Shown piece by piece: positions 9,778 through 48,499 of a DNA stretch of 64,000 bases. The notes under the pieces are model-generated. The model had not been told where the DNA came from. It did no database searches and worked only from the letters and a program-made list of their open reading frames with translations. The DNA is from a bacterium (GTDB lineage Bacteria > Patescibacteriota > Minisyncoccia > Phycocordibacterales > UBA9973). Position numbers and translations under genes: made by a program. Within the stretch, counting starts at the first letter, position 1, and every line of letters begins with the position of its first letter. The stretch spans positions 78,607-142,606 of the forward strand of contig JBAXXQ010000001.1 of NCBI GenBank assembly GCA_037127795.1. Reading direction: 5' to 3'.

Positions 9778-10215
9778 ATGCAAAAGATTCAATTTAAAAA
9801 AACATATTTTTTAATTATTTCAGATAGGCTTGTTACAAGACTTGGTCGCTTAATATCTCTCGGTGATAATGCTATGGCTATCACATTCTGGCCGTTACTT
9901 ATAGTGCGACCCTCTACAAAAGACAATGCAGAGCTTATTCGCCATGAGACAATTCATATCAGACAACAAATAGAACTTCTTGTTATTGGTGCACACCTTT
10001 TATATCTTGTTGAATATTGTTATGCCAGATATATTAAAAAATTTGATAAACGCCAAGCGTATTACTATACAGCAATAGAACAAGAAGCTCACAGGAATGC
10101 AATGAAAGAGGATTATTTGAAAACAAGAAAACCATATGCGGTTTTGTATTACATACGAAACAAAAAATGGCTTGCTCGTGGTCCACAGGGTGAACTTATA
10201 GAAAAAGAGTACTAA
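9778..10215 (+). CDS. hypothetical protein with HExxH (HETIH) zincin-like motif
   Basis: HETIH within a 145-aa partly hydrophobic protein; family not assignable by eye. Confidence 0.35.
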   Translation: MQKIQFKKTYFLIISDRLVTRLGRLISLGDNAMAITFWPLLIVRPSTKDNAELIRHETIHIRQQIELLVIGAHLLYLVEYCYARYIKKFDKRQAYYYTAIEQEAHRNAMKEDYLKTRKPYAVLYYIRNKKWLARGPQGELIEKEY

Positions 10216-10220
10216 AATAA

Positions 10221-10250
10221 AAAGCCCCAGAATTTTCTGAGGCTTTTTAA
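10221..10250. terminator. bidirectional terminator
   Basis: aaaagccccagaattttctgaggcttttt between convergent genes. Confidence 0.6.
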
Positions 10251-10252
10251 TA

Positions 10253-10474
10253 TTACATTTCTTCGTAGCGATCGCCGAACATATATTCTTCGAATTCAGG
10301 ATCTGTATCATCATCTTCTGGTTCTTCTTTTTTCTTTCCGGTGATGGGGTCTATATCAGAATCTGCGAGAGGATCGATTATATCATCGTCGACGATAGGA
10401 TCTTCTATTTCGTCTTCTTCGATAATAACCGCACTTGGGTCGAGCTCGTCTTTGTTGAATTCAGTTTCATCCAT
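10253..10474 (-). CDS. highly acidic small protein (73 aa, ~45% D/E), downstream of ruvC on same strand
   Basis: MDETEFNKDELDPSAVIIEEDEIEDPIVDDDIIDPLADSDIDPITGKKKEEPEDDDTDPEFEEY... Confidence 0.4.
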   Translation of the reverse strand: MDETEFNKDELDPSAVIIEEDEIEDPIVDDDIIDPLADSDIDPITGKKKEEPEDDDTDPEFEEYMFGDRYEEM

Positions 10475-10556
10475 AAATCAAATATATGATAACAATTTTT
10501 TATTTTAATAATGCAATTATTTGTATCAAAATATAGTTTTCTTTGCAAGTCTTTTT

Positions 10557-11039
10557 CTACAATTCCCAGTTTTTTTGTTTTATAGCTCCCAATGAGGCTA
10601 TTCCGAGCGCGATAGCATCTATTTCGTCATCAAGTTTTTTGTCTGTATTTATGTGTAGTGTGAGCTGTACCATCTTTTGTACTTGCTCTTTATTGGCGTT
10701 TCCTATGCCCGTGAGGGCTAGTTTGACCTCTTGAGGGGAGAGTTCTATGAGTGGGATTTTGTGTAGCCCAGCGAGGAGTACAAATACACCGCGCGCTTGT
10801 GCAACATTGATTACTGTCTTTTTATTTACCGAAAAAAACAACGTTTCCAATGCAATATATGCAGGCTTTTCTTGCATGAGAATTTTTTCAGCCTCTGTAT
10901 AGATATATGCGAGGCGTTTTTCTATGGAATCTTTTTTGTCTGTGGTGATACACGCAGAATGTAATATCGCACCCTCTGTATCGAGAAGGGCAATACCACA
11001 TCTATCGTACCCAGGATCTATAGCGAGGATTTTTATCAT
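10557..11039 (-). CDS. ruvC: crossover junction endodeoxyribonuclease RuvC
   Basis: MIKILAIDPGYDRCGIALLD N-terminal catalytic Asp region; 160 aa. Confidence 0.9.
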   Translation of the reverse strand: MIKILAIDPGYDRCGIALLDTEGAILHSACITTDKKDSIEKRLAYIYTEAEKILMQEKPAYIALETLFFSVNKKTVINVAQARGVFVLLAGLHKIPLIELSPQEVKLALTGIGNANKEQVQKMVQLTLHINTDKKLDDEIDAIALGIASLGAIKQKNWEL

Positions 11040-12034
11040 GCAATATAATGTCTGCCTTTTTCTGTAATAACACGACCGCGTTGGGTGCGTTCGAGGAGGC
11101 CGAGCTGTATAAGGTATGGCTCGATGACGTCTTCTATAGTCCCTTCATCTTCGCCTGTTGCTGCGGCAATGTTTTTTACTCCCACAGGGCCACCACCAAA
11201 TTTATCTTGTATGGTGTGTAGTATTGCAATATCATTTTTTGATAAACCGAGCGCATCAAGTCCGAGGAGATCAAACGCTTCCATAACAGATGCAGTATCA
11301 ATATTTTTTTGTTGCATTTGTGCATAGTCTCGCACACGACGGAGAAGGTAGTTTGCTATACGAGGAGTTTTGCGACTGCGGCTTGCTATATGATCTGTCT
11401 CTTCTTGGGGGATAGGGATAGAAAGGATTTCTGCAGAGCGAGTGAGGATCTTTTTTATTTCTTCATCGGTATAAAATTCCAAACGAAATGTCCCTCCAGA
11501 GAATCGTGAACGCAATGGAGAAGATACCATACCAAAACGAGTCGTTGCAGCGAGTAGTGTAAACGGGGGAAGCTCAAGTTGGATTGCGCGAGCAGAAGGA
11601 CCTTTACCAATCATGATATCCATCTTGCCTGTTTCCATTACAGGGTACAAAATTTCTTCAATAGTTTTGTTGAGTCGATGAATTTCATCGATAAATAAAA
11701 TATCACCAGGTTTGAGGTTGGTAAGTATTGCAGCGAGATCACCAACACGCTCTATAGAAGGGCCTGAAGTAATTTTTATTTGTGCACCGACTTCGCGAGC
11801 GATCACATGGGCGAGTGTTGTCTTACCGAGACCTGGTGGTCCATAAAAAAGTATGTGTTCAGGGGCATGTCCGCGAGATTTTGCGGCTCCTATGAGGATA
11901 GAAAGGTTCTTTTTTATCTGGCTTTGGCCGATATATTCGTCAAAAGAATTTGGACGCAACACATTGTCGCTGAATTGGTCATCGAGGCTGGCAGATATAG
12001 GTGTTTTTGGTGTGTTGGTGGGGGTACTTGACAT
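11036..12034 (-). CDS. ruvB: Holliday junction branch-migration ATPase RuvB
   Basis: Walker A GPPGLGKTTLAHVIA, sensor and winged-helix regions; 4-nt overlap with ruvC. Confidence 0.95.
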   Translation of the reverse strand: MSSTPTNTPKTPISASLDDQFSDNVLRPNSFDEYIGQSQIKKNLSILIGAAKSRGHAPEHILFYGPPGLGKTTLAHVIAREVGAQIKITSGPSIERVGDLAAILTNLKPGDILFIDEIHRLNKTIEEILYPVMETGKMDIMIGKGPSARAIQLELPPFTLLAATTRFGMVSSPLRSRFSGGTFRLEFYTDEEIKKILTRSAEILSIPIPQEETDHIASRSRKTPRIANYLLRRVRDYAQMQQKNIDTASVMEAFDLLGLDALGLSKNDIAILHTIQDKFGGGPVGVKNIAAATGEDEGTIEDVIEPYLIQLGLLERTQRGRVITEKGRHYIA

Positions 12035-12295
12035 ATTTTTTGTAGTATGCTATGCTATCTCTAGAACGTACTTATCTAGTGTACTACAAAAAAGCAGCAA
12101 TCTCTAAGCAGTCAGCCTACGGTTCTAAGTTTAGGCCAAGGACGCTTTGGTTCCGACTGGTGCTATCCTCGAAATATTCTTTACTTATATTTTCTAATAT
12201 CTATAAGGACTGTTTAGAGATTAGTGCTTTTTTGTTCATATATAAAAATTTTTTATATATACAAAATATCTGTATGAAAATATAGACTTATAAAA

Positions 12296-12330
12296 TAAAA
12301 ACACCCAGTAGTTATATTGGGTGTTTTTAT
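12296..12330. terminator. bidirectional hairpin (A-run/stem/T-run)
   Basis: aaaataaaaacacccagtagttatattgggtgtttttatttt. Confidence 0.55.
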
Positions 12331-14324
12331 TTTATGCAGTATACTCATATATAGTGTATATACTTTTTTCTAATCATAAAAAAACTTTTTTTGCACTCGC
12401 ATTTGTATTGTGTTTCGGTGCATCTATTTCATACGCAGACAGAGTCGCGCCATATAGTGCAGGAGAAACACTCGATCCAGACTGTGCGCCAAATAGTGGG
12501 GTGAATTGCAGTGTGCATATCACAACCGGGGGAGGAAGTCAGACATTGCAACAAGTACTTACTGCAGGAAGTACGCTGACACAAGATATTACTATTGATG
12601 CGACAGGGCACAGTCTCACTATTAATACAGATAATCTAAACCTAAATGCACTTAATGGTAATACTATAATTCAAGGGGGTGGCGGAACAGAGTTTGATTT
12701 GTTAAATAATGGCAGTATTACTCTTGCTGCTGGTGCTGGTGATATATTATTTGATAATCCGGGTTCAAATTATTTTAAGCTTAAATATAATGGGTCTAAT
12801 GAATTTGTTTCAACCAATGGTACGAATATAACCGATAGTACATATGGAAATGCGTTATTTCTTGCTAATGATGGCTCAGCAAGTCTTACTTCAACAAACG
12901 GTAGTGATATATCTTTAAATGCTGATCACGATATTATATTAACCGCACCCAATGATGCTATTTCTATAGCATCACCGCAGGTAGATGTTATTAGTAGTAA
13001 TGGGGGGCAAGGTCTTCATATGGGGTTGTTTGGTTCAACAAAAATAACGGCAATTAATGGAGAGGATTTGCAATTGGTCAATGATAATAATAATAACTTT
13101 ATACACCTGAGTGGTAATGGTGCTACTTCTATTACTTCGCAAAATTCTCAAGATATAAATATTACTGGTGATGAGCGAGTAATTATTACTGCAAACGATA
13201 ATTTGAATAATAATTATGGTATTGAACTTCATGCAGGAACCGCACAAGCATATTTTAATAAAGATGCTGATATAAATTTTCAAACAGGAGATAGAAGTTT
13301 CTTTGATATGGGTGGTGGGGGAAATATTGATTTTGTAAACGGAAATCATTCAAACGAATTCACTCTTGATCAAGATGGTGGAATCACAGCAATAACTACA
13401 AACGGGTACCCTTTTAATGTTACTGCAAATAATGGTGATATATATCTACAAAGCACTACACATAATAATGGTTTATTTATTCAAAATGACGGATCTTCAT
13501 ATATAACAGCAAGTTTTGAGCTTGGTATTTCAAATACGACATCAAATGCTCGAATATATATGGAAAATAATGGCAACATGCAATTATTTGCTACAAATAG
13601 TGCCAATATGGATTTTGATGTACGTAGTGGAAAGTTTAGTTTTACTGCAGCCACCGGTAATAATACTCCTGTGGTTATAGGTACAAACTCTGGTAATACC
13701 TGTACTTTCTCTACTACCACCGGTACATTCGCATGTGCATCTGATGTACGCCTCAAGCATAATATAAACTCGCTCGATAGTACTGCATTATCAAAAATAC
13801 TTTCATTGAATCCTGTAACGTTTAATTACAACTGGCAATCACCAACAGATGCATCAGTACCAGGATTTATTGCGCAAGAATTTGAGACAGTATTTCCTGA
13901 TATGGTAAGTATTGATCCGACTACGGGGTATAAATCTCTCTCATACACTCCACTTATTCCATACACCATAAAAGCAATACAAGATATACATACTCAAACC
14001 ACAAACCTCGCAAGCCTTACAGGAGACACAGGGAATACACTCAAGGGTGCATTGATAGCTTGGTTTGCCGATATACATAACGGTATTACAAAATTATTTG
14101 CAGATGAGGTTGATACCAATAAATTGTGTGTTGGTGCAGTGTGTGTGACTAGTGATCAATTTTTACAGATGGTACAACAAATACAAACGCAAAATACTGT
14201 ACAAAATAATATTCCAAGTAGTACTCCTGTTGTAGATCCTGTAGTTCCTAGTACTACACAAACACCACCTAGTATAGATACTCCAACTACGCCACCTACA
14301 GATGCTCCAATAGTGACTCAATAA
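12321..14324 (+). CDS. secreted beta-helix/tail-fibre-like protein with C-terminal Peptidase_S74 intramolecular chaperone domain
   Basis: Signal peptide KKTFFALAFVLCFGASISYA (true start probably GTG ~12354); Gly/Asn/Thr-rich repeats; C-terminus SDVRLKHNINSLDSTALSKILSLNPVTFNYNW...GFIAQEFETVFPDMV...GYKSLSYTPLIPYTIKAIQDI matches the S74 endosialidase/tail-fibre chaperone domain; Pro/Thr-rich tail. Confidence 0.6.
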   Translation: MFLFYAVYSYIVYILFSNHKKTFFALAFVLCFGASISYADRVAPYSAGETLDPDCAPNSGVNCSVHITTGGGSQTLQQVLTAGSTLTQDITIDATGHSLTINTDNLNLNALNGNTIIQGGGGTEFDLLNNGSITLAAGAGDILFDNPGSNYFKLKYNGSNEFVSTNGTNITDSTYGNALFLANDGSASLTSTNGSDISLNADHDIILTAPNDAISIASPQVDVISSNGGQGLHMGLFGSTKITAINGEDLQLVNDNNNNFIHLSGNGATSITSQNSQDINITGDERVIITANDNLNNNYGIELHAGTAQAYFNKDADINFQTGDRSFFDMGGGGNIDFVNGNHSNEFTLDQDGGITAITTNGYPFNVTANNGDIYLQSTTHNNGLFIQNDGSSYITASFELGISNTTSNARIYMENNGNMQLFATNSANMDFDVRSGKFSFTAATGNNTPVVIGTNSGNTCTFSTTTGTFACASDVRLKHNINSLDSTALSKILSLNPVTFNYNWQSPTDASVPGFIAQEFETVFPDMVSIDPTTGYKSLSYTPLIPYTIKAIQDIHTQTTNLASLTGDTGNTLKGALIAWFADIHNGITKLFADEVDTNKLCVGAVCVTSDQFLQMVQQIQTQNTVQNNIPSSTPVVDPVVPSTTQTPPSIDTPTTPPTDAPIVTQ

Positions 14325-14332: not shown

Positions 14333-14360
14333 TTCAATTAAGAAAGGTTTTTTTATTTAT
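14333..14360. terminator. bidirectional terminator
   Basis: aaaaaaacctttcaattaagaaaggtttttttattt between convergent genes. Confidence 0.7.
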
Positions 14361-16072
14361 TCCATATCGACGACACTTTGTACTTCTTCAAAATCTGTAA
14401 TACCTTGGAGGATTTTTACGAGGCCATCTTCGCGCATATCGAGAGTGCCTTGTTGGTCAGCAATTTTTTTGATATCGCGCTCAGTAGGGTTTTGCATAAT
14501 GATATGTTCAATATTTTCATCCATTTGTATTGCTTCAAAAACACCAAGCCGTCCTTTGTAGCCTGTGTGGTTGCAGTGAGTACAGCCTTTTGCTGCAACA
14601 AGTGTTTGTACGTCTCGTTGTACACCAAATTGTGCCATATCTTTTTTATTTGCTATAGCATTGTCCCAAATTTTTTGTATCAAAAGTGTTTCTTTTTCTG
14701 TGACAGGGCGATCATAGCGACATTCAGTACAAATTTTTCGTACAAGACGCTGCGCAATAGAAAGCGAAAGAGCGGATACGAGAATCTTTGGATTCACATC
14801 AAGATCGATAAGGCGGGGGATAACACCAGACGCATTGTTGGTGTGCAGTGTTGAAAATACCAAGTGTCCAGTAAGTGCACTTTCTACTGCGATTTTTGCT
14901 GTTTCACTGTCTCGGATTTCTCCCACCATGATTGTATCTGGATCTTGTCGAAGTGCCGATCGAAGCCCTTCGAGGAAGGTATAGCCAAGTTTGTGATCTA
15001 CTTGTGTCTGTGTGATACCAGGAAGGTGGTATTCGATAGGGTCTTCGATGGTAATAATTTTTATTTCAGGAGAAAATATTTTTTGCAAAAAGGCATACAA
15101 AGTGGTGGTCTTTCCAGATCCTGTCGGCCCAGTAAGGAGTATCATGCCGTGAGGTTTTTTGATCTCTTTCATAAAAAGCTCATACATGGGGGCAGAGATT
15201 CCCATTTGGTCGAGTTGTACACGAATAGATTTTGGATTCAAAATACGAAGCACAATACTTTCGCCATATGCGCCTGGGATAAGTGATGTACGAAAACTAA
15301 TTTCTATTTTTTCTTCGTCTTTTGTTCCACCAAGGAATGCACTAAATCGTCCGTCTTGGGCATTGGCTACTTGAGTGAGCTTGAGTCCTGAAATAAGTTT
15401 TACGCGAGTGTTGAGCTGGTGGTATGTTGCCGTATCAAACATAGTGATGACATGGAGTACGCCGTCGAGACGAAAACGCAATTCAGCGTTATTTTCCATA
15501 GGTTCTATGTGTACATCAGATGCACCAAGTCCAATACCGCATCCAAGAATAATTTCGAGGATACGAGAGAGGTGGTGCATTGAAGTGTCGTTTTTTGCGA
15601 GATCAATACGAGTAGTCGCATCATCAAGAGTTTTTACAGAGACTGCGAGCTCTTCGAGAACCTCAGGAGAAATATCGAGTCCACCACTACGAGAAGTAGT
15701 TGCAAAAGAAAGATCTTCGTAGTGAGTCCATACTTTCTTTATACTTTTTTCACTTGCCATATTAAATACAACTTCGAAACCATCTGCCTCAAGTTTTTCT
15801 TTTGCGCTTCGTGCGCCAGTTGCAATAGGGGATCGTACTGCGAGAAAGAGCTTCTTACCAATAAGTTTGTATGGGCCAACATCAAAATGTTTTGCTTCTT
15901 CTTCGGTGAGGAGGCGAATTGCGTCATTACTAATAGTTTGACTTTCAAGATTTACATAAGGAATTTGGTACTTTTCTTCGGCGAGTGTCTTAACAAGAGA
16001 TTCTTCTTCTTGCTCTCGAAGAGTTCTAAGTCGTTTGTTTTGTTGTGTTTCATCAAAGGTTACCATAATCAA
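14357..16072 (-). CDS. pilB: type IV pilus assembly / type II secretion ATPase (PilB/GspE family)
   Basis: Walker A LLTGPTGSGKTTTL, Asp box, His box; tetracysteine CTECRYD...CTHCNHTGYKGR; N-terminal GspII_E-N-like domain. Confidence 0.85.
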   Translation of the reverse strand: MIMVTFDETQQNKRLRTLREQEEESLVKTLAEEKYQIPYVNLESQTISNDAIRLLTEEEAKHFDVGPYKLIGKKLFLAVRSPIATGARSAKEKLEADGFEVVFNMASEKSIKKVWTHYEDLSFATTSRSGGLDISPEVLEELAVSVKTLDDATTRIDLAKNDTSMHHLSRILEIILGCGIGLGASDVHIEPMENNAELRFRLDGVLHVITMFDTATYHQLNTRVKLISGLKLTQVANAQDGRFSAFLGGTKDEEKIEISFRTSLIPGAYGESIVLRILNPKSIRVQLDQMGISAPMYELFMKEIKKPHGMILLTGPTGSGKTTTLYAFLQKIFSPEIKIITIEDPIEYHLPGITQTQVDHKLGYTFLEGLRSALRQDPDTIMVGEIRDSETAKIAVESALTGHLVFSTLHTNNASGVIPRLIDLDVNPKILVSALSLSIAQRLVRKICTECRYDRPVTEKETLLIQKIWDNAIANKKDMAQFGVQRDVQTLVAAKGCTHCNHTGYKGRLGVFEAIQMDENIEHIIMQNPTERDIKKIADQQGTLDMREDGLVKILQGITDFEEVQSVVDME

Positions 16073-16186: not shown

Positions 16187-17110
16187 ATGAAAAAAATGTT
16201 CTTTGTCATTGCAATAATAACTATGAGTATATTTTCTGCGCAAGCAGGAGATAAAAAGGGTAATGGTGTATTACATGGAAAAGAGTATGGATTACATGCT
16301 CAAAATAATGAGTTGCAACAATTTTTGTTACACTACACTGAGCCAGACTACAAGAAAAAATATAAAAAAATTCTTGCGTTTGATGTAAATTCTGCAGGGG
16401 ATTCGTATAAACAATTTCTTGCAGAAGTATTTCCTGGTGAAAAATTTGAAGACATTCTTAGTGGATCAGAAGAGATTGATTTACCGGCAGATTTGTCTGG
16501 TGAATATTTTATCGGATATGTTCCATTAGATGCGACATCATTTGAATGGTTTTCAAGGAAGTCTCATATTGCTGAAAAAGGTTTAAGATATAAGGGTATT
16601 TTCTGGGCGTCAACGTATTGTTGGAATCCAATAAAGAAAAAACCTGCTGTTAAACAACAAACTGTTGCAACAGTGCCTGTAGCTCCTCCTCAACAACAAG
16701 TGGTAACAACACCAGCACCAGCGGTTGTATATCAACCTGCCCCTCAACAGCAAGTGGTAACACAACAACCAGTTACAGTACTGCCAATACAAACACAATA
16801 TGTTATGTATCAGCAGCCACAAGTCGTGTATGTACAACAACCTCAACAGATTGTGTACAATACTGGGTATTCTGGTTGTAATGGTTATGGTTACTATGGT
16901 GGAAATTACAGCTTTGGCGATCATGTATTAAGCTCAGCTGTTAATGTAGGCGCTTATTGGGCAAAAAGTGCAATACGAAATAGTTATCAAAATAACAATT
17001 CGTATCAGCAAAACAATTCCTACCAACATACGAATACTAATTATTCTAACAATAATAGTAATCAATCTGGTGGGGGGCCTCGTTCAGCGGCTACATACAG
17101 TCATCATTAA
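16187..17110 (+). CDS. secreted Gln/Pro/Val-rich repeat protein with N/Q/Y-rich C-terminus
   Basis: Signal peptide MKKMFFVIAIITMSIFSAQA; repeated QQQVVT units; low-complexity tail. Confidence 0.5.
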   Translation: MKKMFFVIAIITMSIFSAQAGDKKGNGVLHGKEYGLHAQNNELQQFLLHYTEPDYKKKYKKILAFDVNSAGDSYKQFLAEVFPGEKFEDILSGSEEIDLPADLSGEYFIGYVPLDATSFEWFSRKSHIAEKGLRYKGIFWASTYCWNPIKKKPAVKQQTVATVPVAPPQQQVVTTPAPAVVYQPAPQQQVVTQQPVTVLPIQTQYVMYQQPQVVYVQQPQQIVYNTGYSGCNGYGYYGGNYSFGDHVLSSAVNVGAYWAKSAIRNSYQNNNSYQQNNSYQHTNTNYSNNNSNQSGGGPRSAATYSHH

Positions 17111-17176
17111 TTGCAAAAAAGCTTTATTTAAAAGGACATCTTCGGATGTCCTTTTCTTATTTCTTATTATAAGTAC

Positions 17177-17205
17177 TTGACAAAATTATATAAATCTGCT
17201 ATACT
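17177..17205 (+). promoter_or_regulatory. sigma70-like promoter TTGACA-N17-TATACT (duplicate of 16116-16144 motif)
   Basis: cTTGACAaaattatataaatcTGcTATACT. Confidence 0.6.
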
Positions 17206-17247
17206 ATACTCAGAAACAAATTAAATCATATATAAACTTTTTGCAAC

Positions 17248-17835
17248 ATGAAAAAGATATATCAGTTCCTTGTCGTAGTAATTATAGTAGTTTTCTCGTC
17301 ATGTGCAGCTAGTAAGCCGCAGATGCCAGTTATCATCAGTACAACAAATCCTGTCAGCGCTACGCCTGCCGTAGTAAATCAGGCACCAATGGTGCAGCCA
17401 CAGCAAAATCAGTTGATGTATACGTTTATTCCAGGGGAAGTAGTAGTACCCATGAATGAATATATGAATACTGAAGGTACAGGATACATCGCTACACCAC
17501 CAGTAACAAATCCGTCTTGGAATACTTTTTATAATGAGTATACCAAGCAGTGGTACGATGATGCTCCTCAAGCTGTCGGTAGTGGCAAGTATGCTTCAGT
17601 AAAATTTCTATATCAAGACCAACAAGGTCATATATATGAAAAAATGCTTACTGCTGAGTTTGAAACAACTGTTGGATTAGGAGATTTTGCAAAAGAAATT
17701 TACCTAAAAACAACAAATGGTTACCTTGCAAAATATCAATACCCAAACGGAACCGTTCCTTATATTCCAGGAGCAGGCTTTCATAAGGTTGGATTACGAT
17801 TCTTTGGTGGAAAGTTGTGGATTACGAGCCATTAA
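17248..17835 (+). CDS. putative lipoprotein
   Basis: Signal peptide with lipobox-like VVFSSC; 195 aa. Confidence 0.5.
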   Translation: MKKIYQFLVVVIIVVFSSCAASKPQMPVIISTTNPVSATPAVVNQAPMVQPQQNQLMYTFIPGEVVVPMNEYMNTEGTGYIATPPVTNPSWNTFYNEYTKQWYDDAPQAVGSGKYASVKFLYQDQQGHIYEKMLTAEFETTVGLGDFAKEIYLKTTNGYLAKYQYPNGTVPYIPGAGFHKVGLRFFGGKLWITSH

Positions 17836-17893
17836 TTACTATTACTACATTTTTTACAAAAGTCACGATGATCTTCATTGTGGCTTTTTTATA

Positions 17894-17922
17894 TTGACAA
17901 ATATTTTTATATATGCTATATT
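17894..17922 (+). promoter_or_regulatory. sigma70-like promoter TTGACA-N17-TATATT
   Basis: aTTGACAaatatttttatatatgcTATATT upstream of ATG 17969. Confidence 0.5.
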
Positions 17923-17968
17923 CTACATAGTCGATTTACAGAGACAAAAATACTATACTTATATACAT

Positions 17969-19966
17969 ATGAACAAATTTATAAAAACAATTTTCGTACT
18001 AGCGTTTGCAATCTTGGCATTGCCTAGTTTTGCGCATGCGCAAGCATTTAATAATAATTCTCAAGACCTTGGAACAGTACTTGTAGCAAATGATACATCA
18101 AGTGGTTGTGGTATTTCTATGGGAACAGGTTGTTGGAAATCTTCAGTATCTGCAAATGCAGGGGATGTGATTTCTGTGCAGGTGTATTACCACAATACCG
18201 GCACTACTGCTGCAAATAATGTAGCGGTTACTCTTTCTCCACAAAATACAGCACTTTCTACAACAGCTACATTTTCTGGCGGCATCTTGTATAACGGTGG
18301 TACTGCGGCAAGTGGTTCAGCCTCTGTGTATTTTAATAATAGTTCACAAACTCTTACATATATTCCGGGAAGTATTCGTTGGTATCCAAACCAAGCTTCT
18401 AGTGGGCAAGGTGTTTCAAATGGAACAAACCTCTTTACTTCTGGCGGACTTTCAGTAGGTGATGTGAATCCTGGGTGGTCAAATCAAGGTATGGTAACAG
18501 CTGATTTTCAGGTATCAAATAATAATCAAAATAACAACAATAATACCGGTATAGGCTATTGTTCTCTTAATCTTACCTCAAACACATACTCTGTATATTC
18601 TGGAAACCCTGCAACACTTTCTTGGACATCAAGTAATTGTACAAACCTTGTTATAAACGGGGTAGGGAGTGGTTTGAATTCATCTGGATCTACAACAGTA
18701 TATCCATACAGTACCATGACCTATACTCTTACCGGACAAGGTAATAATGGTACAGTACAAAGCCAAGTAGTTATTTATACAAACAACTATAACAACAATA
18801 ACTACAATAATTACAATACAAGTTGTTCAATTTATAGTTTTTCTGCAGATAGAACAACTATAAATCGTAATGAAAATACAGGGCTTCATTGGAGTACCAA
18901 TGCTGATCATGTAGCAATAAGTCCACTTAGTATCAACTATGGCGCAGCTTCATCTTCAACGGTGGTAAGTCCTGCAACTTCAACTACATACCAGCTCACT
19001 GCGTATTGTTCAAATGGATATACACAATCTGCTAATGTAACAGTGAGTGTTGCAAATACTGCAACTTCAACTATGCAAGCAGATACAACACCCGCAACAT
19101 TGGTACATGCATCATATGCACAGCTCAATGGTATTGTGACACCAAACAATAATGGTAATGCAACAACATGGTTTGAATATGGTCTTACAGGAAGTTTTGG
19201 AAGTAGGACAAATGCGCAAAGTGTTTCTGCTGCAAGTAGTAGTTATGTAGATGACACTATTACAGGGCTTACTCCTGGTACTTGGTATTACTATCGTACT
19301 GTTTTGCAAAACCAAAGTGGTACTGTGTATGGTGATATTGTACGATTCCAAACCAAGGGTGGTGTTGTAGATACTGTAGTTCCTACACATACAGCAGCAG
19401 TGCACACTATTGTTAATAATACTGTTATTGCAAAAAGTGCTCCATCTTTGCTTGAGCTCAAGGTGAACAGTCAATATGATCGTATGTGTGTAAATGGTGA
19501 TATGCAATATACTGTGTCTTACCAAAATATCAGTACTACAACTCTCAAAGATGCAGTACTTCGTATTACACATCCAAAAGATCTTACATTTGAAGCAAGT
19601 ACTCTCGGTACTTATGAAGTACTCGACCGTGCAGTTACTATAAATGTAGGTAATCTCGCTCCAAACCAAAGTGGTATCGTAGTGCTTACTTTCAAAGTAA
19701 ATAGTGACGCAACACAAGGTGAGCTCACTGTAACTACTGCCTCAATGGTATATACAAATCCAGCAACAACAGCACAAGAAGATGCAACAGCATATTCATT
19801 GATAACCGTTTCAAATGATTGTCCTACTGCAAGTACTCTCGGTGCTAGTGCGTTTGGTACATCATTCCTTCCTCATACATTGCTCGAATGGTTGCTTCTT
19901 ATACTAGTTATCCTTGCATTGATTATTCTTGCAAGACAATTGTATAAGAAAAATCACCAAGCATAA
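17969..19966 (+). CDS. large cell-surface protein (CARDB/DUF11-like repeats) with C-terminal membrane anchor
   Basis: True start MNKFIKTIFVLAFAILALPSFAHA (signal peptide); Ig-like repeat segments; C-terminus LPHTLLEWLLLILVILALIILARQLYKKNHQA (motif + TM + basic tail). Confidence 0.55.
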   Translation: MNKFIKTIFVLAFAILALPSFAHAQAFNNNSQDLGTVLVANDTSSGCGISMGTGCWKSSVSANAGDVISVQVYYHNTGTTAANNVAVTLSPQNTALSTTATFSGGILYNGGTAASGSASVYFNNSSQTLTYIPGSIRWYPNQASSGQGVSNGTNLFTSGGLSVGDVNPGWSNQGMVTADFQVSNNNQNNNNNTGIGYCSLNLTSNTYSVYSGNPATLSWTSSNCTNLVINGVGSGLNSSGSTTVYPYSTMTYTLTGQGNNGTVQSQVVIYTNNYNNNNYNNYNTSCSIYSFSADRTTINRNENTGLHWSTNADHVAISPLSINYGAASSSTVVSPATSTTYQLTAYCSNGYTQSANVTVSVANTATSTMQADTTPATLVHASYAQLNGIVTPNNNGNATTWFEYGLTGSFGSRTNAQSVSAASSSYVDDTITGLTPGTWYYYRTVLQNQSGTVYGDIVRFQTKGGVVDTVVPTHTAAVHTIVNNTVIAKSAPSLLELKVNSQYDRMCVNGDMQYTVSYQNISTTTLKDAVLRITHPKDLTFEASTLGTYEVLDRAVTINVGNLAPNQSGIVVLTFKVNSDATQGELTVTTASMVYTNPATTAQEDATAYSLITVSNDCPTASTLGASAFGTSFLPHTLLEWLLLILVILALIILARQLYKKNHQA

Positions 19967-24077: not shown

Positions 24078-24596
24078 TTATTCTGCAAGAGTAGTGTGTG
24101 GAAATCTTTTTGCAATGTATACCAATAGGAGACCAAGACTGAGCACGGTAAGCGCCATCATAGGGATAGTAATATAGCCAAATTCATATATATAACGAGC
24201 AAGGCATGATGGACCATTTGCACCACAAACATCTACTCCGGTAGGGAAAATATCTATAATATTGTGAAATAGGGCAAACAATAGTCCTCCCAATGCAAAA
24301 ATACTGATCTGTTTACGAAGTAGTGCAGACTTTTGTACGTTACCGGTCAGAGCGAGTATTGCTATACCAAAGATCGCAATACGCTGGTACCAGCACAACA
24401 TGCAGGGTGCGTAGAGGAATATGTATTCATATACAAGACTAATAAATGCACCACCGACAAACAATACACGGAGGCTGATAGTAGTCCATGGGGCGATACG
24501 AGGGAGGACTGGTGAGTCTGTCAAAATAGCAACAAAAAGAAATAGTATTACTAGTTGCAAAAATACAACACCAGAGGCAATGAGTGTATTAAACAT
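24078..24596 (-). CDS. disulfide bond formation protein B (DsbB/BdbC-like)
   Basis: Polytopic membrane protein with CMLC (CxxC) and second Cys pair CGANGPSC. Confidence 0.6.
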   Translation of the reverse strand: MFNTLIASGVVFLQLVILFLFVAILTDSPVLPRIAPWTTISLRVLFVGGAFISLVYEYIFLYAPCMLCWYQRIAIFGIAILALTGNVQKSALLRKQISIFALGGLLFALFHNIIDIFPTGVDVCGANGPSCLARYIYEFGYITIPMMALTVLSLGLLLVYIAKRFPHTTLAE

Positions 24597-24597
24597 A

Positions 24598-24999
24598 TTA
24601 TTGTAATGGACAATTTGTTTTATTTGCTAATGTTTCTAGAGGGATTTCTCCGGTAAGTCGTGAGCTATCTGCGAATACCCAGGTAGGGAAGCCTTCAATT
24701 TTTGCATCAATACAAATTTGTTTTTGTTTTTGATCTGGTGTTTGGCATTCTACATAGGGAAGGTATTTTACAGAATTACCGAACAATTTCTTTTGTGCTT
24801 GGCAGTGAGGACACCACCATGCGCCATAAAACTTCGCACCACTTTGATTTATACATTGTGCGAGCTTGTCGTATTGTCCTGGTTTGCGAGCTTGTACTAC
24901 AAGAAAGACAACCATACTAATTGCGACCACTCCTACAACGATCCACGGCATGTATTTTTTCATATAATTTAGCGTACCTTTTTGGTACATTTTTTGCAA
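24598..24999 (-). CDS. membrane-anchored thioredoxin-fold thiol-disulfide oxidoreductase (DsbA/BdbD-like)
   Basis: N-terminal TM helix; WCPHC active site. Confidence 0.55.
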   Translation of the reverse strand: MQKMYQKGTLNYMKKYMPWIVVGVVAISMVVFLVVQARKPGQYDKLAQCINQSGAKFYGAWWCPHCQAQKKLFGNSVKYLPYVECQTPDQKQKQICIDAKIEGFPTWVFADSSRLTGEIPLETLANKTNCPLQ

Positions 25000-32972: not shown

Positions 32973-33776
32973 ATGAATAAAAAAGCACAAATTGTCGCAA
33001 CGGTAGGTCCTAGTAGTAAAAGTGTCGAAGTGCTTCGTGCAATGATTGCAGGAGGTATGAATGTTGTGCGGTTGAATTTTTCTTGGGGGAGCTATGAAGA
33101 GCATGCACAATATATTCATGATGTGCGCATACTCGCGCAAGAAATGGGCGTGCATATTCCTATTATCCAAGATCTCTCTGGTCCTCGTATCCAAGAAACA
33201 CATGGGCACGAATTTGATATACATGCCGTGACCGATATCACAGAAAAAGATATGAAAGATTTGTCTTTTGGTCTTTCTCAAAATGTAGATTATGTTGCAC
33301 TTTCTTTTGTAGGAAATGCGGGTGATATAGTGCAGTTGAAAAAGCTTATACAAGATGCAGGAAAGAGTACTCCTGTCATTGCAAAAATTGAGCGCGCTAT
33401 AGCATTGCAAAATATCGATGAGATTATTGCGGCGACAGATGCAGTAATGATTGCTCGTGGCGATCTCGGTAATGAAATGCCTTTAGAAAAAATTCCTTTT
33501 ATAGAAAAAACACTCATTGCAAAATGCAAAGCTGCTGGCAAGCCTGTAATCACAGCAACACAAATGATGCTCTCAATGACCAAGAGTCCTACTCCAACCC
33601 GTGCTGAAGTGACCGATGTTGCATATGCAATATTGAATGGCTCAGATGCAGTGATGCTTTCTGAAGAAAGTGCAAACGGCGAGCACCCTGTAGAAGCTGT
33701 GTCTATGATGAATCGTATTATCGCAGAAGCAGAGACACATATAGCTCCTGATACCGTTTTTCACCCGCTCGTGTAA
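32973..33776 (+). CDS. pyk: minimal pyruvate kinase-like protein (A/barrel domain only; B lid and C domain absent)
   Basis: IVATVGPSS, GMNVVRLNFSWG, MIARGDLGNE, TQMMLSM...PTRAEVTDVAYA...DAVMLSEESANGEHP conserved; only 267 aa. Confidence 0.65.
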   Translation: MNKKAQIVATVGPSSKSVEVLRAMIAGGMNVVRLNFSWGSYEEHAQYIHDVRILAQEMGVHIPIIQDLSGPRIQETHGHEFDIHAVTDITEKDMKDLSFGLSQNVDYVALSFVGNAGDIVQLKKLIQDAGKSTPVIAKIERAIALQNIDEIIAATDAVMIARGDLGNEMPLEKIPFIEKTLIAKCKAAGKPVITATQMMLSMTKSPTPTRAEVTDVAYAILNGSDAVMLSEESANGEHPVEAVSMMNRIIAEAETHIAPDTVFHPLV

Positions 33777-45831: not shown

Positions 45832-45916
45832 AATATATTAAAAAACAATAAAAAATAGATTTGTCAAATAGGTGCTGTATATTCTTTTAAATATTCATTC
45901 ATTTAAAAAATATACT

Positions 45917-46558
45917 ATGCAAGTAAAAGAATGTTCACCTGTAGGGATAGATGTTATACAAAACAAAGGAGCAATTATTATCGGAGTAAGTATTAATAAT
46001 AGTTATTTTAAAGAATCTAATTTAACAAAAATAATTTCTTGGTCAGCGACAAGAGCAAGTAATGTTTATATTATGATTCCTGATACTCCGTCGGTAAGTA
46101 CATTAATTGCTTTAGGGTATGAGCAGAATAAGGCAGAAACACTAGCAAGACTGAAATCTAATAGTTTAGAAAATAAGTGTTTATTTATTATTAAAGAATT
46201 AAATCTTGATAATATAAAAATTATTAGATGGAGGGATTTGATAGGAAGGATAGAATATGTTCAAGCAATCGGGCATATTAAATATTTCTACGACAACGAC
46301 CTATCTTTTAAAGATGCATTGAGAAAAACAACTAGTGATGTTCTCAAACATAATATGTCGGATGTTCCTAGTGAATCTCAGATAGATATAGGTGTTGTTT
46401 TCTTACTTCAAGAGCTTGCCTTTATTTGTCATGCAGACTCTATTTTAAAAGAAGAGAAGTTGGGATATTTGTATCACAACACAATGGATGTTTTAAAAGG
46501 GATTATTGAAAATAGGTTTTCTTTCAAAACAAAAATTGGTTTTATCACCGCAGAATAA
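45917..46558 (+). CDS. tRNA-dependent cyclodipeptide synthase (CDPS, AlbC/YvmC family)
   Basis: AIIIGVSINNSYFKESNLTKIISWSA matches the CDPS hallmark GISxxNSxF..LIxWA; FLLQELAFICH...YLYH matches the ELP(F/Y)..YH C-terminal catalytic region; 213 aa. Confidence 0.65.
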   Translation: MQVKECSPVGIDVIQNKGAIIIGVSINNSYFKESNLTKIISWSATRASNVYIMIPDTPSVSTLIALGYEQNKAETLARLKSNSLENKCLFIIKELNLDNIKIIRWRDLIGRIEYVQAIGHIKYFYDNDLSFKDALRKTTSDVLKHNMSDVPSESQIDIGVVFLLQELAFICHADSILKEEKLGYLYHNTMDVLKGIIENRFSFKTKIGFITAE

Positions 46559-46704
46559 TCATTACCTTTAAAAGCCTATATGTGATTTATAGGCTTTTTT
46601 TGTTTATATATTAATTCCTTCTAATAGAGTTTCCTAAGCTCGTCGAGTATAGGACACCCTATTTAGACAAGCTTAGAACAGCTTTTCTGGTATACTTGTT
46701 ATAT

Positions 46705-47667: not shown

Positions 47668-47668
47668 T

Positions 47669-48457: not shown

Positions 48458-48499
48458 GCTCATTGGGCATAGGATCTAATTAATGTAACACTACATATA

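What the first reader, a model, noticed from the sequence alone, without database searches (positions are those of the whole stretch)
12321..14324. Secreted beta-helical protein ending in a phage tail-fibre-type S74 intramolecular chaperone (auto-cleaving) domain
The C-terminal ~85 residues (nt ~13735-13990: SDVRLKHNINSLDSTALSKILSLNPVTFNYNW...GFIAQEFETVFPDMVSIDPTTGYKSLSYTPLIPYTIKAIQDI) match the Peptidase_S74 chaperone-of-endosialidase domain, which trimerises phage tail spikes/fibres and then self-excises at the Ser of the (S)DxRLK motif. The body is Gly/Asn/Thr-repeat rich, consistent with a beta-helix, and has a signal peptide. The gene sits among other surface proteins (a Q/P-rich protein, a lipoprotein and a DUF11/CARDB-like giant with a sorting-signal-like C-terminus) and is convergent with pilB. 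It could be a domesticated tail-fibre used for host or episymbiont attachment, or a prophage remnant.
Basis: partly seen in the sequence, partly recalled or inferred. Interest (0 to 1): 0.6.

Follow-up and report, generated by a model that had tools for sequence, protein, structure and literature searches.

The report
Self-cleaving surface fibre of a Patescibacterium
A tiny-genome (Patescibacteria/CPR) bacterium carries, among ordinary housekeeping genes, an exported fibre protein with the self-cleaving folding domain of phage tail fibres; it belongs to a large lineage-specific variant of a known kind and is a candidate host-attachment protein.

Summary
ORF 12321-14324 (+) has a Peptidase_S74 / intramolecular-chaperone (IMC) domain (PF13884, 51.4 bits against a cutoff of 22). 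The Ser-Lys dyad is intact (SDVRLK; Ser at nt 13740-13742), and the predicted fold matches solved IMC structures.

Three corrections:
- The true start is probably GTG 12354 (656 aa).
- The protein does not end with the quoted peptide. A further 111 residues follow: helix, Cys hairpin, helix, then a Pro/Thr tail.
- The beta-helix body rests only on a significant 9/27-residue repeat. The AlphaFold model of the body is uninformative.

It is not a prophage remnant. No phage structural genes were found among the window ORFs scanned, and the gene sits between ruvB and pilB in the same synteny in a related genome. The organism is a Paceibacteria-type Patescibacterium.

The protein belongs to a very large modular family: signal peptide, "TLDPxCAP..C" cap, swappable body, Cys loop, S74, Cys hairpin, acidic/PT tail. 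The long post-cleavage fragment (190 aa or more) and the Cys staples are nearly confined to Patescibacteria, and are absent from the 79 most similar viral loci (87-110 aa).

The closest characterised cellular analogue is the Bdellovibrio MAT fibres. NCBI already labels this protein "tail fiber domain-containing protein". Verdict: new variant of a known kind, moderate interest.

The parts
12028..12056 (+). Sigma-70-like promoter match (TTGACA-17-TATGCT, TG-extended) in the ruvB / fibre-gene divergent intergenic region
   Evidence: Consensus scan only. The region had fewer promoter-like sites than its shuffles, so this is a lead and not proof.
12087..12235 (+). Conserved 149-nt structured element in the 5' leader: a ~25-bp closing stem around a GC-rich three-way core
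   Evidence: One substitution between the window and the orthologous locus L002, while flanking coding DNA is 85-89% identical. MFE -49.6 kcal/mol, z=-6.1. No Rfam family.
12286..12338 (+). Strong intrinsic-terminator-like hairpin plus U-run, ending about 16-18 nt before the likely start codon
   Evidence: dG -27.9 kcal/mol, z=-9.6. It is retained (-26.1 kcal/mol) in L002 although the leader's substitutions cluster there. The simple terminator scan missed it because the stem is AT-rich.
12354..14324 (+). Fibre gene, likely true CDS (656 aa plus stop); the ORF listing gives an upstream GTG at 12321
   Evidence: 100% identical to NCBI MEI6022318.1, 'tail fiber domain-containing protein'.
12354..12437 (+). 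Sec-type signal peptide (MYILFSNHKK-TFFALAFVLCFGA-SISYA|D)
   Evidence: The only hydrophobic segment in the protein. The AF2 model puts a helix at residues 2-28. AxA-type cleavage sites are conserved in relatives. 93 of 116 full-length family members have a hydrophobic N-terminus. Heuristic; no SignalP was available.
12438..12578 (+). Conserved N-terminal cap (APYSAGETLDPDCAPNSGVNCSV...), Cys44-Cys52 pair
   Evidence: The motif DPxCxP...C occurs in 83 of 116 full-length family members. It is present in the consensus of alignment A5. Identity to the orthologue over residues 1-80 is 89%.
12579..13688 (+). Asn/Gly/Thr-rich repeat body with a 9-residue unit (NG-x-x-Phi-x-Phi-x-x) and a 27-residue super-period; inferred beta-helix
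   Evidence: Autocorrelation z=5.5 at 27, 4.2 at 18 and 3.9 at 9. There is an 81-aa indel and lower identity against the orthologue. AF2 is uninformative here. No PDB sequence match.
13689..13739 (+). Cys450-Cys461 loop (NTCTFSTTTGTFACA) directly before the cleavage site; becomes the C-terminal tip of the mature fibre
   Evidence: At least 2 Cys within the 25 aa before the Ser in 134 of 143 family representatives, and in 0 of 79 viral loci.
13740..14003 (+). S74 / intramolecular chaperone core. Catalytic Ser463 at nt 13740-13742, Lys468 at nt 13755-13757, GFIAQE motif, long helix. The Pfam match covers 13740-13907.
   Evidence: PF13884 at 51.4 bits. S, D, K, G, F, A and Q are invariant in the alignments. 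pLDDT above 90. Foldseek hits: MyRF ICA 7dc3 (prob 1.00, TMt 0.66) and GA-1 IMC 3gud (prob 0.99). 253 viral IMC/tail-fibre fold hits. Profile hits to 8jov, 6f45, 7dc3 and 3gud.
14004..14192 (+). Lineage-typical extension: helix, Cys592-x4-Cys597 beta-hairpin (KLCVGAVCVT), helix
   Evidence: The hairpin and following helix are modelled at pLDDT 85-90. A Cys hairpin about 129 aa after the Ser occurs in 134 of 143 family representatives and in 0 of 79 viral loci.
14193..14321 (+). Pro/Thr-rich disordered tail with no membrane anchor or sorting motif
   Evidence: Composition T 23%, P 21%. Low pLDDT. Family tails are T/P/S/E/D-rich, median 73 aa, and 0 of 134 have a TM-like segment.
14357..16072 (-). 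pilB (type IV pilus / T2SS ATPase), convergent neighbour; context only
   Evidence: PF00437 at 377.6 bits. The adjacency is conserved in L002 but seen in only 1 of 80 related loci.
16187..19966 (+). Three exported or surface proteins (Q/P-rich; lipobox-like; DUF11-like with an LPHTL sorting-like C-terminus) forming a fast-evolving surface-protein cluster together with the fibre gene
   Evidence: aa identity to the orthologous locus is 36.8%, 31.9% and 78.7%, against 97-99% for PilB and RuvB. Domain and motif evidence.
24078..24999 (-). DsbB-family and thioredoxin-like genes; possible oxidative-folding system for the three Cys pairs (context)
   Evidence: PF02600 DsbB at E=5.3e-11. Thioredoxin hits are weak, E about 5e-4 and below cutoff. 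The link to the fibre is inferred.

Best explanation
The gene encodes a chromosomal, vertically inherited, Sec-exported homotrimeric surface fibre of a Paceibacteria-type Patescibacterium.

Proposed mechanism:
1. The pre-protein is exported through an N-terminal signal peptide.
2. Outside the membrane, where there is no ATP, the C-terminal S74/IMC domains of three chains associate. They template C-to-N folding of the 9/27-residue-repeat beta-helical body. Three local disulfides (Cys44-52, 450-461, 592-597) staple the cap, the tip and the post-IMC hairpin.
3. The Ser463-Lys468 dyad then cuts the chain before Ser463. This releases a 194-aa fragment (IMC + Cys hairpin + P/T tail) and leaves a mature fibre of about 434 aa.
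4. The mature fibre binds a ligand on a partner or host cell surface.

Shown here: the domain identity, dyad conservation, IMC fold, repeat periodicity, non-phage chromosomal context, family architecture and its taxonomic restriction, and faster divergence than the housekeeping neighbours.

Inferred: export and signal-peptide cleavage, trimerisation, disulfides, autoproteolysis, the beta-helix fold and the adhesin role.
For: Domain and dyad:
- PF13884 at 51.4 bits against a cutoff of 22.
- S/D/K and GFxAQ are invariant across the alignments.
- A profile of the C-terminal module hits the solved IMC proteins 8jov, 6f45, 7dc3 and 3gud.

Fold:
- AF2 C-terminal model with core pLDDT above 90.
- It matches MyRF ICA 7dc3 (prob 1.00, TMt 0.66) and 3gud (prob 0.99), plus 253 viral IMC/tail-fibre models.

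Precedent for cleavage:
- Bdellovibrio Bd3182 self-cleaves at the SDxxxK serine, and S782A blocks it (PMC10769870).

Cellular, not phage:
- Flanks are PBP1a, an aaRS, RuvC, RuvB, PilB, TsaE, PolA, RuvA, enolase and similar.
- No phage modules in the PHROG scan.
- The same synteny in an 82%-identical orthologue.
- The paralogue sits beside IMPDH, PK and S30AE.

Family:
- 12,115 cluster representatives at E<=1e-3.
- 134 of 143 top representatives share the Cys loop and the Cys hairpin. Bodies range from 163 to 1862 aa.
- Bodies include YadA_head (7 of 56), collagen, and SASA and GDSL esterases. These are trimeric adhesin and glycan-acting modules.

Diversification:
- 81.9% identity plus an 81-aa repeat indel, against 97-99% for PilB and RuvB.

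Extracytoplasmic location:
- The signal peptide, paired cysteines, and DsbB nearby.
Against: - No experiment or multimer model supports trimerisation or cleavage here.
- The full-length AF2 model is uninformative for the body, with pLDDT below 50.
- The body has no PDB or Pfam match. DUF2345 scores only E=0.007, below cutoff.
- The 27-residue period is stronger than the 9-residue period. That would fit a single-chain three-faced helix at least as well as an intertwined triple helix.
- It is unknown how a signal-peptide-cleaved, self-cleaved fibre would stay on the cell. No anchor, LPXTG or lipobox was found.
- The adhesin role rests on analogy only.
- Why a 'disposable' chaperone fragment carries a conserved Cys hairpin and a long tail is unexplained.
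Confidence: 0.65

Rival explanations
1. Prophage or phage-remnant tail fibre. The gene is a leftover receptor-binding protein of an integrated phage and has no cellular role.
For: PHROG tail-fibre families hit the protein: phrog_1980 at E=2.5e-16 over aa 247-564, and phrog_5481. The S74 core is 40-44% identical to Streptococcus phage PblB and hyaluronidase proteins and to cyanophage fibre proteins.
Against: - No capsid, portal, terminase, tail-tube, integrase or lysis genes among the main ORFs scanned.
- The gene lies between ruvB and pilB with identical synteny in a related genome.
- It has a Sec signal peptide, which cytoplasmically assembled phage fibres lack.
- The Cys loop, Cys hairpin and long tail are absent from all 79 most similar IMG/VR loci.
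- INPHARED hits cover only the core.
Confidence: 0.04
2. Secreted tailspike-like enzyme. The beta-helical body is a glycan depolymerase or esterase, as in endosialidase and P22 tailspike. After S74-assisted folding it degrades host-cell or biofilm polysaccharide to feed or expose the episymbiont, rather than merely adhering.
For: S74 domains classically mature enzymatic tailspikes (established knowledge: K1F endosialidase, Schulz 2010, cited). Some family members carry SASA or GDSL/SGNH carbohydrate-esterase domains. One viral fold hit is annotated pectate-lyase superfamily.
Against: This protein's body has no match to any catalytic family in Pfam, NCBIfam or PDB. It is a simple 9-residue repeat with no obvious insertion that could form an active-site groove.
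Confidence: 0.12
3. Structural envelope component. The protein is an S-layer-like or cell-surface coat or spacer fibre with no specific partner recognition. Its rapid divergence reflects evasion of phages or predators rather than host recognition.
For: It sits in a cluster of fast-evolving surface proteins. The family is extremely abundant, and some loci carry 2-3 tandem copies. No ligand-binding domain was identified in this member.
Against: Relatives carry recognisable adhesin heads (YadA_head) and glycan-acting domains. The characterised cellular S74 fibres (Bdellovibrio MATs) act in prey recognition and handling. There is no SLH or other wall-binding domain.
Confidence: 0.15
4. Release-switch (MyRF-like) logic. 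The C-terminal fragment (IMC + Cys hairpin + P/T tail) is the cell-associated part. S74 cleavage then serves to release the trimeric N-terminal fibre into the medium or onto the host. The extended fragment has its own function and is not a disposable chaperone.
For: The post-cleavage fragment is about twice as long as in the 79 most similar viral loci. It also carries a conserved Cys hairpin and a long tail found almost only in Patescibacteria. In some relatives a folded Ig-like domain (PF16403) follows the S74 domain. MyRF uses the same domain to release a trimer from a tethered C-terminal part (7dc3; established knowledge).
Against: None of 134 family tails has a TM-like segment, and no wall-sorting motif was found. 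The tail is low-complexity and poorly conserved in sequence.
Confidence: 0.15

Closest known systems
Phage tailspike / tail-fibre C-terminal intramolecular chaperone domains (K1F endosialidase 3GW6, GA-1 neck appendage 3GUD, T5 pb1, S16 gp37 6F45; Pfam PF13884 Peptidase_S74)
   Same: An S74 HMM match above threshold, the SDxxxK Ser-Lys dyad, the GFIAQE motif and the predicted fold. The domain sits C-terminal to a repeat-rich fibre body.
   Different: The gene is on a cellular chromosome with no phage genes nearby and has a Sec signal peptide. Cys pairs lie before the cleavage site and after the IMC. The post-Ser fragment is 194 aa, against 87-110 aa in the 79 most similar viral loci, and none of those has either Cys feature. 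From my own knowledge, K1F and T5 IMCs are about 130-155 aa, which is still shorter and lacks this hairpin and tail.
Bdellovibrio bacteriovorus MAT (mosaic adhesive trimer) fibres, S74 subgroup (e.g. Bd3182; Caulton et al. 2024, PMC10769870)
   Same: Cellular, signal-peptide-bearing, long modular fibres with a conserved N-terminal module, swappable bodies or tips, and a C-terminal S74 domain with SDxxxK. They are used by a bacterium that lives on other bacteria. The S74 core is 42% identical over 86 aa.
   Different: The MAT-defining ~130-aa N-terminal beta-rich domain is not detectably homologous (BLASTP E=0.45). The MAT capping-loop motif V-G-G/N-x-x-x-P-x-x-x-L is absent. Bdellovibrio S74 tails are 130-147 aa, coiled-coil-like, without the family-typical Cys hairpin or a P/T tail. 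The host is a diderm predator, whereas this organism is a Patescibacterium.
MyRF (myelin regulatory factor) ICA domain, 7DC3
   Same: It is the best structural match to the predicted C-terminal module (prob 1.00, TMt 0.66) and has a profile sequence match at E=8.3e-6. The dyad spacing is the same.
   Different: MyRF is a eukaryotic membrane-tethered transcription factor in which cleavage releases a DNA-binding trimer. There is no DNA-binding or TM region here.
Trimeric autotransporter adhesins (YadA family)
   Same: Functional analogy: obligately trimeric, modular, repeat-rich surface fibres whose C-terminal module drives trimer assembly. Relatives in this family even carry YadA_head repeats (7 of 56).
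   Different: There is no YadA anchor beta-barrel, and from established knowledge there is no outer membrane to insert it into. Trimerisation here is attributed to a self-excising S74 domain.

Membership tests
Peptidase_S74 / intramolecular chaperone (IMC, ICA) domain family | Match to the PF13884 HMM above the gathering threshold | tested here: met
   51.4 bits against 22, E=1.4e-13, profile positions 1-57 of 58.
Peptidase_S74 / intramolecular chaperone (IMC, ICA) domain family | Catalytic Ser-Lys dyad in an S-D-x-x-x-K motif | tested here: met
   S463-D-V-R-L-K468. S, D and K are invariant in alignments A1, A4 and A5.
Peptidase_S74 / intramolecular chaperone (IMC, ICA) domain family | IMC fold (beta-rich N-part plus a long trimerising helix) | tested here: met
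   AF2 core pLDDT above 90. Foldseek hits 7dc3 (prob 1.00) and 3gud (prob 0.99). 253 viral IMC hits.
Peptidase_S74 / intramolecular chaperone (IMC, ICA) domain family | Homotrimerisation and autoproteolytic release of the domain | not testable with these tools
   No multimer prediction or experiment was available. Inferred from dyad conservation and from Bd3182 and endoNF precedents.
Peptidase_S74 / intramolecular chaperone (IMC, ICA) domain family | Lies C-terminal to a trimeric beta-helix or fibre that it helps fold | tested here: inconclusive
   The body shows a 9/27-aa periodicity, but the AF2 body model has pLDDT below 50 and there is no PDB match.
Phage / prophage tail fibre (virion receptor-binding protein) | Encoded within a phage genome or prophage next to other virion and morphogenesis genes | tested here: not met
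   Pfam/PHROG scans of the main ORFs across the window show housekeeping genes only. Chromosomal synteny is conserved.
Phage / prophage tail fibre (virion receptor-binding protein) | Sequence similarity to phage tail-fibre families beyond the S74 domain | tested here: inconclusive
   phrog_1980 aligns aa 247-564 (E=2.5e-16) and phrog_5481 aligns aa 256-564. INPHARED tblastn with the C-terminal module covers only the core at 44% identity or less. The body similarity may be repeat or compositional.
Bdellovibrio MAT fibre family | Conserved ~130-aa beta-rich domain immediately after the signal peptide | tested here: not met
   BLASTP of the N-terminal 182 aa against a Bdellovibrio S74 fibre N-terminus gives E=0.45. 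This is a sequence-level test only.
Bdellovibrio MAT fibre family | Capping-loop motif V-G-G/N-pi-x-x-P-x-x-x-L on the beta-helix | tested here: not met
   No strict or relaxed regex match in the protein.
Bdellovibrio MAT fibre family | Signal peptide plus a terminal S74 domain with SDxxxK | tested here: met
   The signal peptide was judged by heuristic.
Patescibacteria long-form, Cys-stapled S74 fibres (grouping defined here) | SP + DPxCxP..C cap; Cys pair within 25 aa before the Ser; Cys hairpin ~104-156 aa after the Ser; 190 aa or more from Ser to stop, with a T/P/S/E/D-rich tail | tested here: met
   All features are present in the window protein. Frequencies among 143 representatives are. 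The taxonomic restriction is shown.
Trimeric autotransporter adhesins | C-terminal YadA-type membrane anchor | tested here: not met
   No YadA_anchor or any beta-barrel family hit in Pfam.

The most novel reading that the evidence does not exclude
Patescibacteria have evolved their own version of the phage fibre-maturation module, adapted to folding outside the cell. It has disulfide staples around the cleavage site, and the released fragment is twice the size of the one in the most similar phage genes. That fragment (IMC + Cys hairpin + acidic/PT tail) is itself functional, for example as a cell-wall tether that makes S74 cleavage a release switch (MyRF-like), or as a secreted product. The resulting mosaic fibres would be the long-sought host-recognition determinants of CPR episymbionts. 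In this lineage, expression would be gated by a novel structured leader RNA that ends in a terminator immediately before the start codon.
Probability: 0.15. Interest if true: 0.75.

Novelty: new variant of a known kind. Interest (0 to 1): 0.45.

Why it matters
How ultra-small Patescibacteria (CPR) recognise and hold on to their host cells is largely unknown beyond type IV pili and a few unnamed adhesins. This gene is one member of a huge mosaic family of exported fibres with swappable bodies, including YadA heads, collagen and glycan esterases. That is the same design phages and Bdellovibrio use to recognise prey surfaces.

Members also occur in Saccharibacteria, a group for which genetic tools exist. 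The host-recognition idea is therefore testable.

The lineage-specific additions (Cys staples and the long post-cleavage fragment) also offer a natural case of an intramolecular chaperone working outside the cytoplasm.

The basic fact is not new. Bacterial chromosomes are already known to encode S74 'tail fiber domain' proteins, and NCBI already annotates this one that way.

Tried and rejected
1. Prophage hypothesis. Pfam on about 47 ORFs and PHROGs on the ORFs without Pfam hits found no phage modules. Rejected.
2. Functional linkage to pilB. Only 1 of 80 related genome loci has a PilB homologue within 6 kb. The adjacency is treated as incidental.
3. Membership of the Bdellovibrio MAT family. 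Neither the N-terminal domain nor the capping-loop motif was found. It is kept as an analogue only.
4. Full-length AlphaFold2 monomer to test the beta-helix. The body has pLDDT below 50, so it is uninformative. No multimer option was available.
5. Direct PDB sequence search with the full protein and with the body gave no hits. Only the profile of the C-terminal module found IMC structures.
6. NCBIfam gave no hit.
7. Leader RNA. No Rfam family at gathering threshold or at E<=1 (only terminator look-alike sRNA hits). nhmmer over all held loci found only the orthologue. A metagenome pattern scan returned 13 matches that all belong to an unrelated coding motif. No covariation test was therefore possible.
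8. The look-up of encoding contigs for the exact protein is not on record. The source was identified through cluster membership and RuvB relatives instead.
9. The afdb50 fold library was unavailable.
10. Literature. No paper in the library links S74 or 'chaperone of endosialidase' with CPR or Patescibacteria.
Full report

The ORF listing returns a 667-aa ORF at exactly 12321..14324 on the + strand. Pfam reports PF13884 Peptidase_S74 at E=1.4e-13, 51.4 bits (gathering cutoff 22), over residues 474-529 and nearly the whole model. PHROGs returns tail-fibre, PblB-type and hyaluronidase families. NCBIfam returns nothing.

The lysine lies five residues later (SDVRLK). The body is Asn/Gly/Thr-rich: 14.5%, 12.0% and 11.8%.

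Three details need correcting.
- **Start codon.** The GTG at 12321 lies inside a very stable terminator-like hairpin. NCBI's model of the identical protein (MEI6022318.1, 656 aa) and the N-termini of the orthologue and paralogue point to GTG 12354. I use 656-numbering below, so the dyad is Ser463 and Lys468.
- **C-terminus.** The protein does not end with the S74 peptide. A further 111 residues follow '...AIQDI'.
- **Beta-helix.** This is an inference, not a demonstrated fold (see section 4).

**2. Genomic context and organism**

Pfam scans of the main ORFs across the window (about 47) show ordinary chromosomal genes:
- PBP1a, Tyr/Trp-tRNA synthetase, an epimerase, methyltransferases, nitroreductase and a SET-domain protein
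- RuvC and RuvB, then the fibre gene, then PilB
- three exported proteins, TsaE, PolA, DsbB/thioredoxin-like, Fur, a ZIP transporter, SpoU and RuvA
- enolase, pyruvate kinase, DHODH, PilM, PheT and others, plus seven tRNAs

A PHROG scan of the ORFs with no Pfam hit and of the immediate neighbours found no capsid, portal, terminase, tail or integrase family.

An 82%-identical orthologue (P0002) lies on an independent metagenome contig in the same RuvC-RuvB | fibre | PilB ... TsaE arrangement. A 1024-aa paralogue from the same 580,599-bp NCBI contig sits beside IMPDH, pyruvate kinase and a ribosome hibernation factor.

All named close relatives of the window's RuvB (75-80% identity) are Candidatus Paceibacterota, Pacebacteria or Nomurabacteria. 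The window therefore comes from a small-genome Patescibacterium (CPR). The 'prophage remnant' alternative is not supported.

**3. The C-terminal module**

A profile built from six homologous C-termini (A1) hits solved IMC-containing proteins:
- a tail fibre, 8jov (E=1.8e-11)
- the phage S16 long-tail-fibre tip, 6f45 (2.2e-8)
- the MyRF ICA domain, 7dc3 (8.3e-6)
- the GA-1 neck-appendage IMC, 3gud (0.055)

An AlphaFold2 model of residues 420-667 with a 59-sequence alignment has mean pLDDT 77.6, and above 90 across the S74 core. Foldseek ranks MyRF ICA first (7dc3_B: E=3.7e-4, prob 1.00, TMt 0.66, rmsd 3.0 A), followed by 3gud (prob 0.99) and the K1F IMC 3gw6. The viral predicted-structure library gives 253 hits at E<=1e-3, headed by 'intramolecular chaperone auto-processing domain' and tail-fibre proteins. 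S, D, K and the GFxAQ motif are invariant in every alignment made. Domain membership is therefore secure. Trimerisation and self-cleavage remain inferred.

The model continues beyond the core: a long helix, a second helix, a beta-hairpin formed by KLC592VGAVC597VT (pLDDT 85-90), another helix, and then a disordered Pro/Thr tail.

**4. The body**

BLOSUM and hydrophobic autocorrelation against shuffles show a 9-residue unit (NG-x-x-Phi-x-Phi-x-x) with a 27-residue super-period. The z-scores are 3.9 at 9, 4.2 at 18 and 5.5 at 27, and the hydrophobic z at 27 is 5.0. This fits a three-faced beta-helix.

It does not decide between a single-chain helix (27 residues per turn) and an intertwined triple helix (one 9-mer per face per chain). 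The latter is what IMC domains are known to fold, according to the Schulz 2010 reference cited.

The full-length AF2 monomer is uninformative, with pLDDT below 50 for residues 29-416. The body has no PDB sequence match. The only Pfam hint is a sub-threshold DUF2345 (VgrG beta-helix) hit at E=0.007.

**5. The family**

An exhaustive phmmer search of 1.84 billion cluster representatives found 12,115 proteins at E<=1e-3, 1,290 at E<=1e-10 and 56 at E<=1e-30. Nearly all of the top 150 align to query residues ~430-650, placed at the extreme C-terminus of proteins of 200-2052 aa.

Among 148 such representatives:
- 143 carry SDxxxK...GFIAQ.
- 134 have at least 2 Cys in the 25 residues before the Ser.
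- 134 have a Cys hairpin about 129 residues after it.
- The tail beyond the hairpin has a median length of 73 aa, is T/P/S/E/D-rich, and in 0 of 134 cases contains a TM-like segment.
- Of 116 apparently full-length proteins, 83 have the N-terminal DPxCxP...C cap and 93 have a hydrophobic N-terminus.
- Bodies range from 163 to 1862 aa.

A Pfam scan of 56 members shows S74 in all 56, YadA_head repeats in 7, GDSL/SGNH esterases in 2-3, and one each of SASA sialate-O-acetylesterase, collagen and an Ig-like domain. This is a mosaic fibre family built from trimeric-adhesin and glycan-acting modules.

**6. What is lineage-specific**

I compared the distance from the catalytic Ser to the stop codon.
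- **Viral loci.** In the 79 most similar IMG/VR loci the distance is 87-110 aa (median 97). None has the Cys hairpin or the pre-Ser Cys pair.
- **Cultured phages.** INPHARED phages match only the core, at 44% identity or less.
- **Cellular genomes.** In GTDB species genomes the distribution is bimodal.
  - The short class (97-147 aa) consists of Bacteroidota, Bdellovibrio, Verrucomicrobiota, Lysobacterales and Calothrix.
  - The long class (190-458 aa) is almost entirely Patescibacteria lineages: Saccharibacteria, Paceibacterota/Parcubacteria, Nomura-, Campbell-, Kaiser-, Buchanan-, Zambryski-, Moran- and Dojkabacteria, and Microgenomates.
  - The long class also includes unnamed MAGs and a few oddly binned ones. 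Most of its members have the pre-Ser Cys pair.

The window protein, at 194 aa with both Cys features, belongs to the long class. One caveat: the viral sample is the top 80 by similarity. From my own knowledge, the K1F and T5 IMCs are about 130-155 aa. They are still shorter and lack this hairpin and tail.

**7. Evolutionary behaviour**

Against the orthologous locus, RuvB is 99.1% identical at the protein level, PilB 96.8%, and the other housekeeping neighbours 88-96%. The fibre protein is 81.9% identical and has an 81-aa indel in the repeats. Its N-cap (about 89%) and IMC (about 94%) are better conserved than its body.

The three downstream exported proteins are 36.8%, 31.9% and 78.7% identical. 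The fibre gene is thus part of a fast-evolving surface-protein cluster, as expected for proteins under diversifying or arms-race selection.

Linkage to pilB is not a family trait. Only 1 of 80 related loci has a PilB homologue within 6 kb.

**8. Most likely mechanism**

Steps are marked shown or inferred.
- **Export (inferred).** Sec export through the signal peptide, judged by heuristic rules, the AxA site and family conservation.
- **Folding (inferred).** Folding takes place outside the membrane. The IMC trimerises and templates the beta-helical body from C to N. The IMC domain identity is shown here; its role follows from the family's established function.
- **Disulfides (inferred).** Three local disulfides form (44-52, 450-461, 592-597). 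The evidence is strict pairing, conservation and a nearby DsbB gene.
- **Cleavage (inferred).** The Ser463/Lys468 dyad cuts the chain. The dyad itself is shown. Cleavage is inferred from the endoNF and Bd3182 S782A precedents.
- **Products (inferred).** A mature fibre of about 434 aa and a 194-aa C-terminal fragment.
- **Function (inferred).** Binding to a partner or host surface. The evidence is the family's adhesin and esterase modules, the fast divergence, and analogy to phage receptor-binding proteins and Bdellovibrio MATs.

Two points remain unexplained. First, it is unclear how the mature fibre stays attached, although the conserved N-cap is the obvious candidate docking module. Second, it is unclear why the 'disposable' fragment is long and conserved.

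**9. Comparison with known systems and novelty**

The domain is a bona fide S74/IMC domain. The closest characterised cellular analogue is the S74 subgroup of Bdellovibrio MAT fibres. These have a signal peptide, a conserved N-domain, a trimeric fibre and SDxxxK self-cleavage (PMC10769870).

The window protein is not a MAT family member by the tests run here. The N-domain is not homologous (E=0.45), the capping-loop motif is absent, and only the S74 core is shared (42% over 86 aa).

NCBI already labels the protein 'tail fiber domain-containing protein', so the basic domain call is not new. I found no paper in the library connecting S74 domains with Patescibacteria.

I therefore rate it a new variant of a known kind: the Patescibacteria long-form, Cys-stapled, Sec-exported S74 fibre. 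Interest is moderate (0.45). It is not surprising in principle. It does provide concrete, testable candidates for CPR host recognition, including in tractable Saccharibacteria.

**10. Side finding: the 5' leader**

The 320-nt ruvB-fibre intergenic region is 97% identical between the two genomes, while flanking coding DNA is 85-89% identical. It contains:
- a sigma-70-like promoter match
- a 149-nt element with a long closing stem and a GC-rich three-way core, with one substitution between the genomes and z about -6
- a terminator-like hairpin of -27.9/-26.1 kcal/mol that is preserved even though the few substitutions cluster there, and that ends about 16-18 nt before the start codon

No Rfam family matches, and no further homologues were found. 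It could be a small RNA gene or a riboswitch-like attenuator of the fibre gene. With only two near-identical copies, covariation cannot be tested.

Noticed in passing
window 12035-12353 (+); orthologous L002:5510-5831: The intergenic leader upstream of the fibre gene is 97% identical between two genomes whose flanking coding DNA is only 85-89% identical. It holds a 149-nt strongly structured element (12087-12235) and a very stable terminator-like hairpin (12286-12338) that ends just before the start codon. No Rfam family matches. It is a candidate novel sRNA or a riboswitch-like attenuator.
   Followed up: partly
window 12321 vs 12354: The longest-ORF start (GTG 12321) lies inside the terminator-like hairpin. 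The NCBI model and the orthologue and paralogue N-termini support GTG 12354, giving 656 aa rather than 667. No obvious Shine-Dalgarno sequence precedes either start.
   Followed up: yes
window 16187-17110, 17248-17835, 17984-19966 (+): Three exported proteins next to pilB diverge very fast between close relatives: 36.8%, 31.9% and 78.7% aa identity, against 97-99% for PilB and RuvB. The third has a sub-threshold DUF11 hit and a C-terminus that resembles a sortase sorting signal with a variant motif (LPHTL + hydrophobic stretch + KKNHQA). No sortase gene was looked for.
   Followed up: partly
window 45872-46558 (+) and the surrounding ~46000-52000: A cyclodipeptide synthase (PF16715, E=2.9e-24) sits at the edge of a low-GC region (28-33%) with strongly positive GC skew. 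That region is full of ORFs with no Pfam hit and could be an island or secondary-metabolite locus, which is unusual for a reduced genome.
   Followed up: no
window 24078-24999 (-): Adjacent DsbB-family and thioredoxin-like genes suggest an extracytoplasmic disulfide-forming system. That fits the strictly paired cysteines in the fibre protein.
   Followed up: no
window 9778-10215 (+): A conserved 145-aa protein with a HExxH-like motif (HETIH) has no Pfam hit but matches a PHROG 'protease' family (phrog_15610, E=1.5e-17). It is 95.9% identical in the orthologous locus.
   Followed up: no
window 10215-10557 vs L002:3052-3927: The orthologous locus carries a ClpP gene and a 73-aa ORF between the 145-aa protein and ruvC. 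The window has only about 340 nt there, so there is a gene-content difference between close relatives.
   Followed up: no
window 32973-33776 (+): A pyruvate-kinase ORF of only 267 aa covers just part of the PK barrel domain. A full-length 470-aa PK lies next to the paralogous fibre gene on contig L001. This may be a truncated or split second copy.
   Followed up: no
loci L010, L022, L025, L040 (3 copies), L051, L069, L070 and others: Several genomes carry two or three S74-domain genes within a ~12-kb stretch, which suggests tandem expansion of fibre genes in both Patescibacteria and Bacteroidota/Bdellovibrio.
   Followed up: no
P0013, P0023, P0024: Some family members have a folded Ig-like domain (PF16403) after the S74 domain, Cys hairpin and linker. 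This argues that the post-cleavage fragment is not always a mere disposable chaperone.
   Followed up: partly
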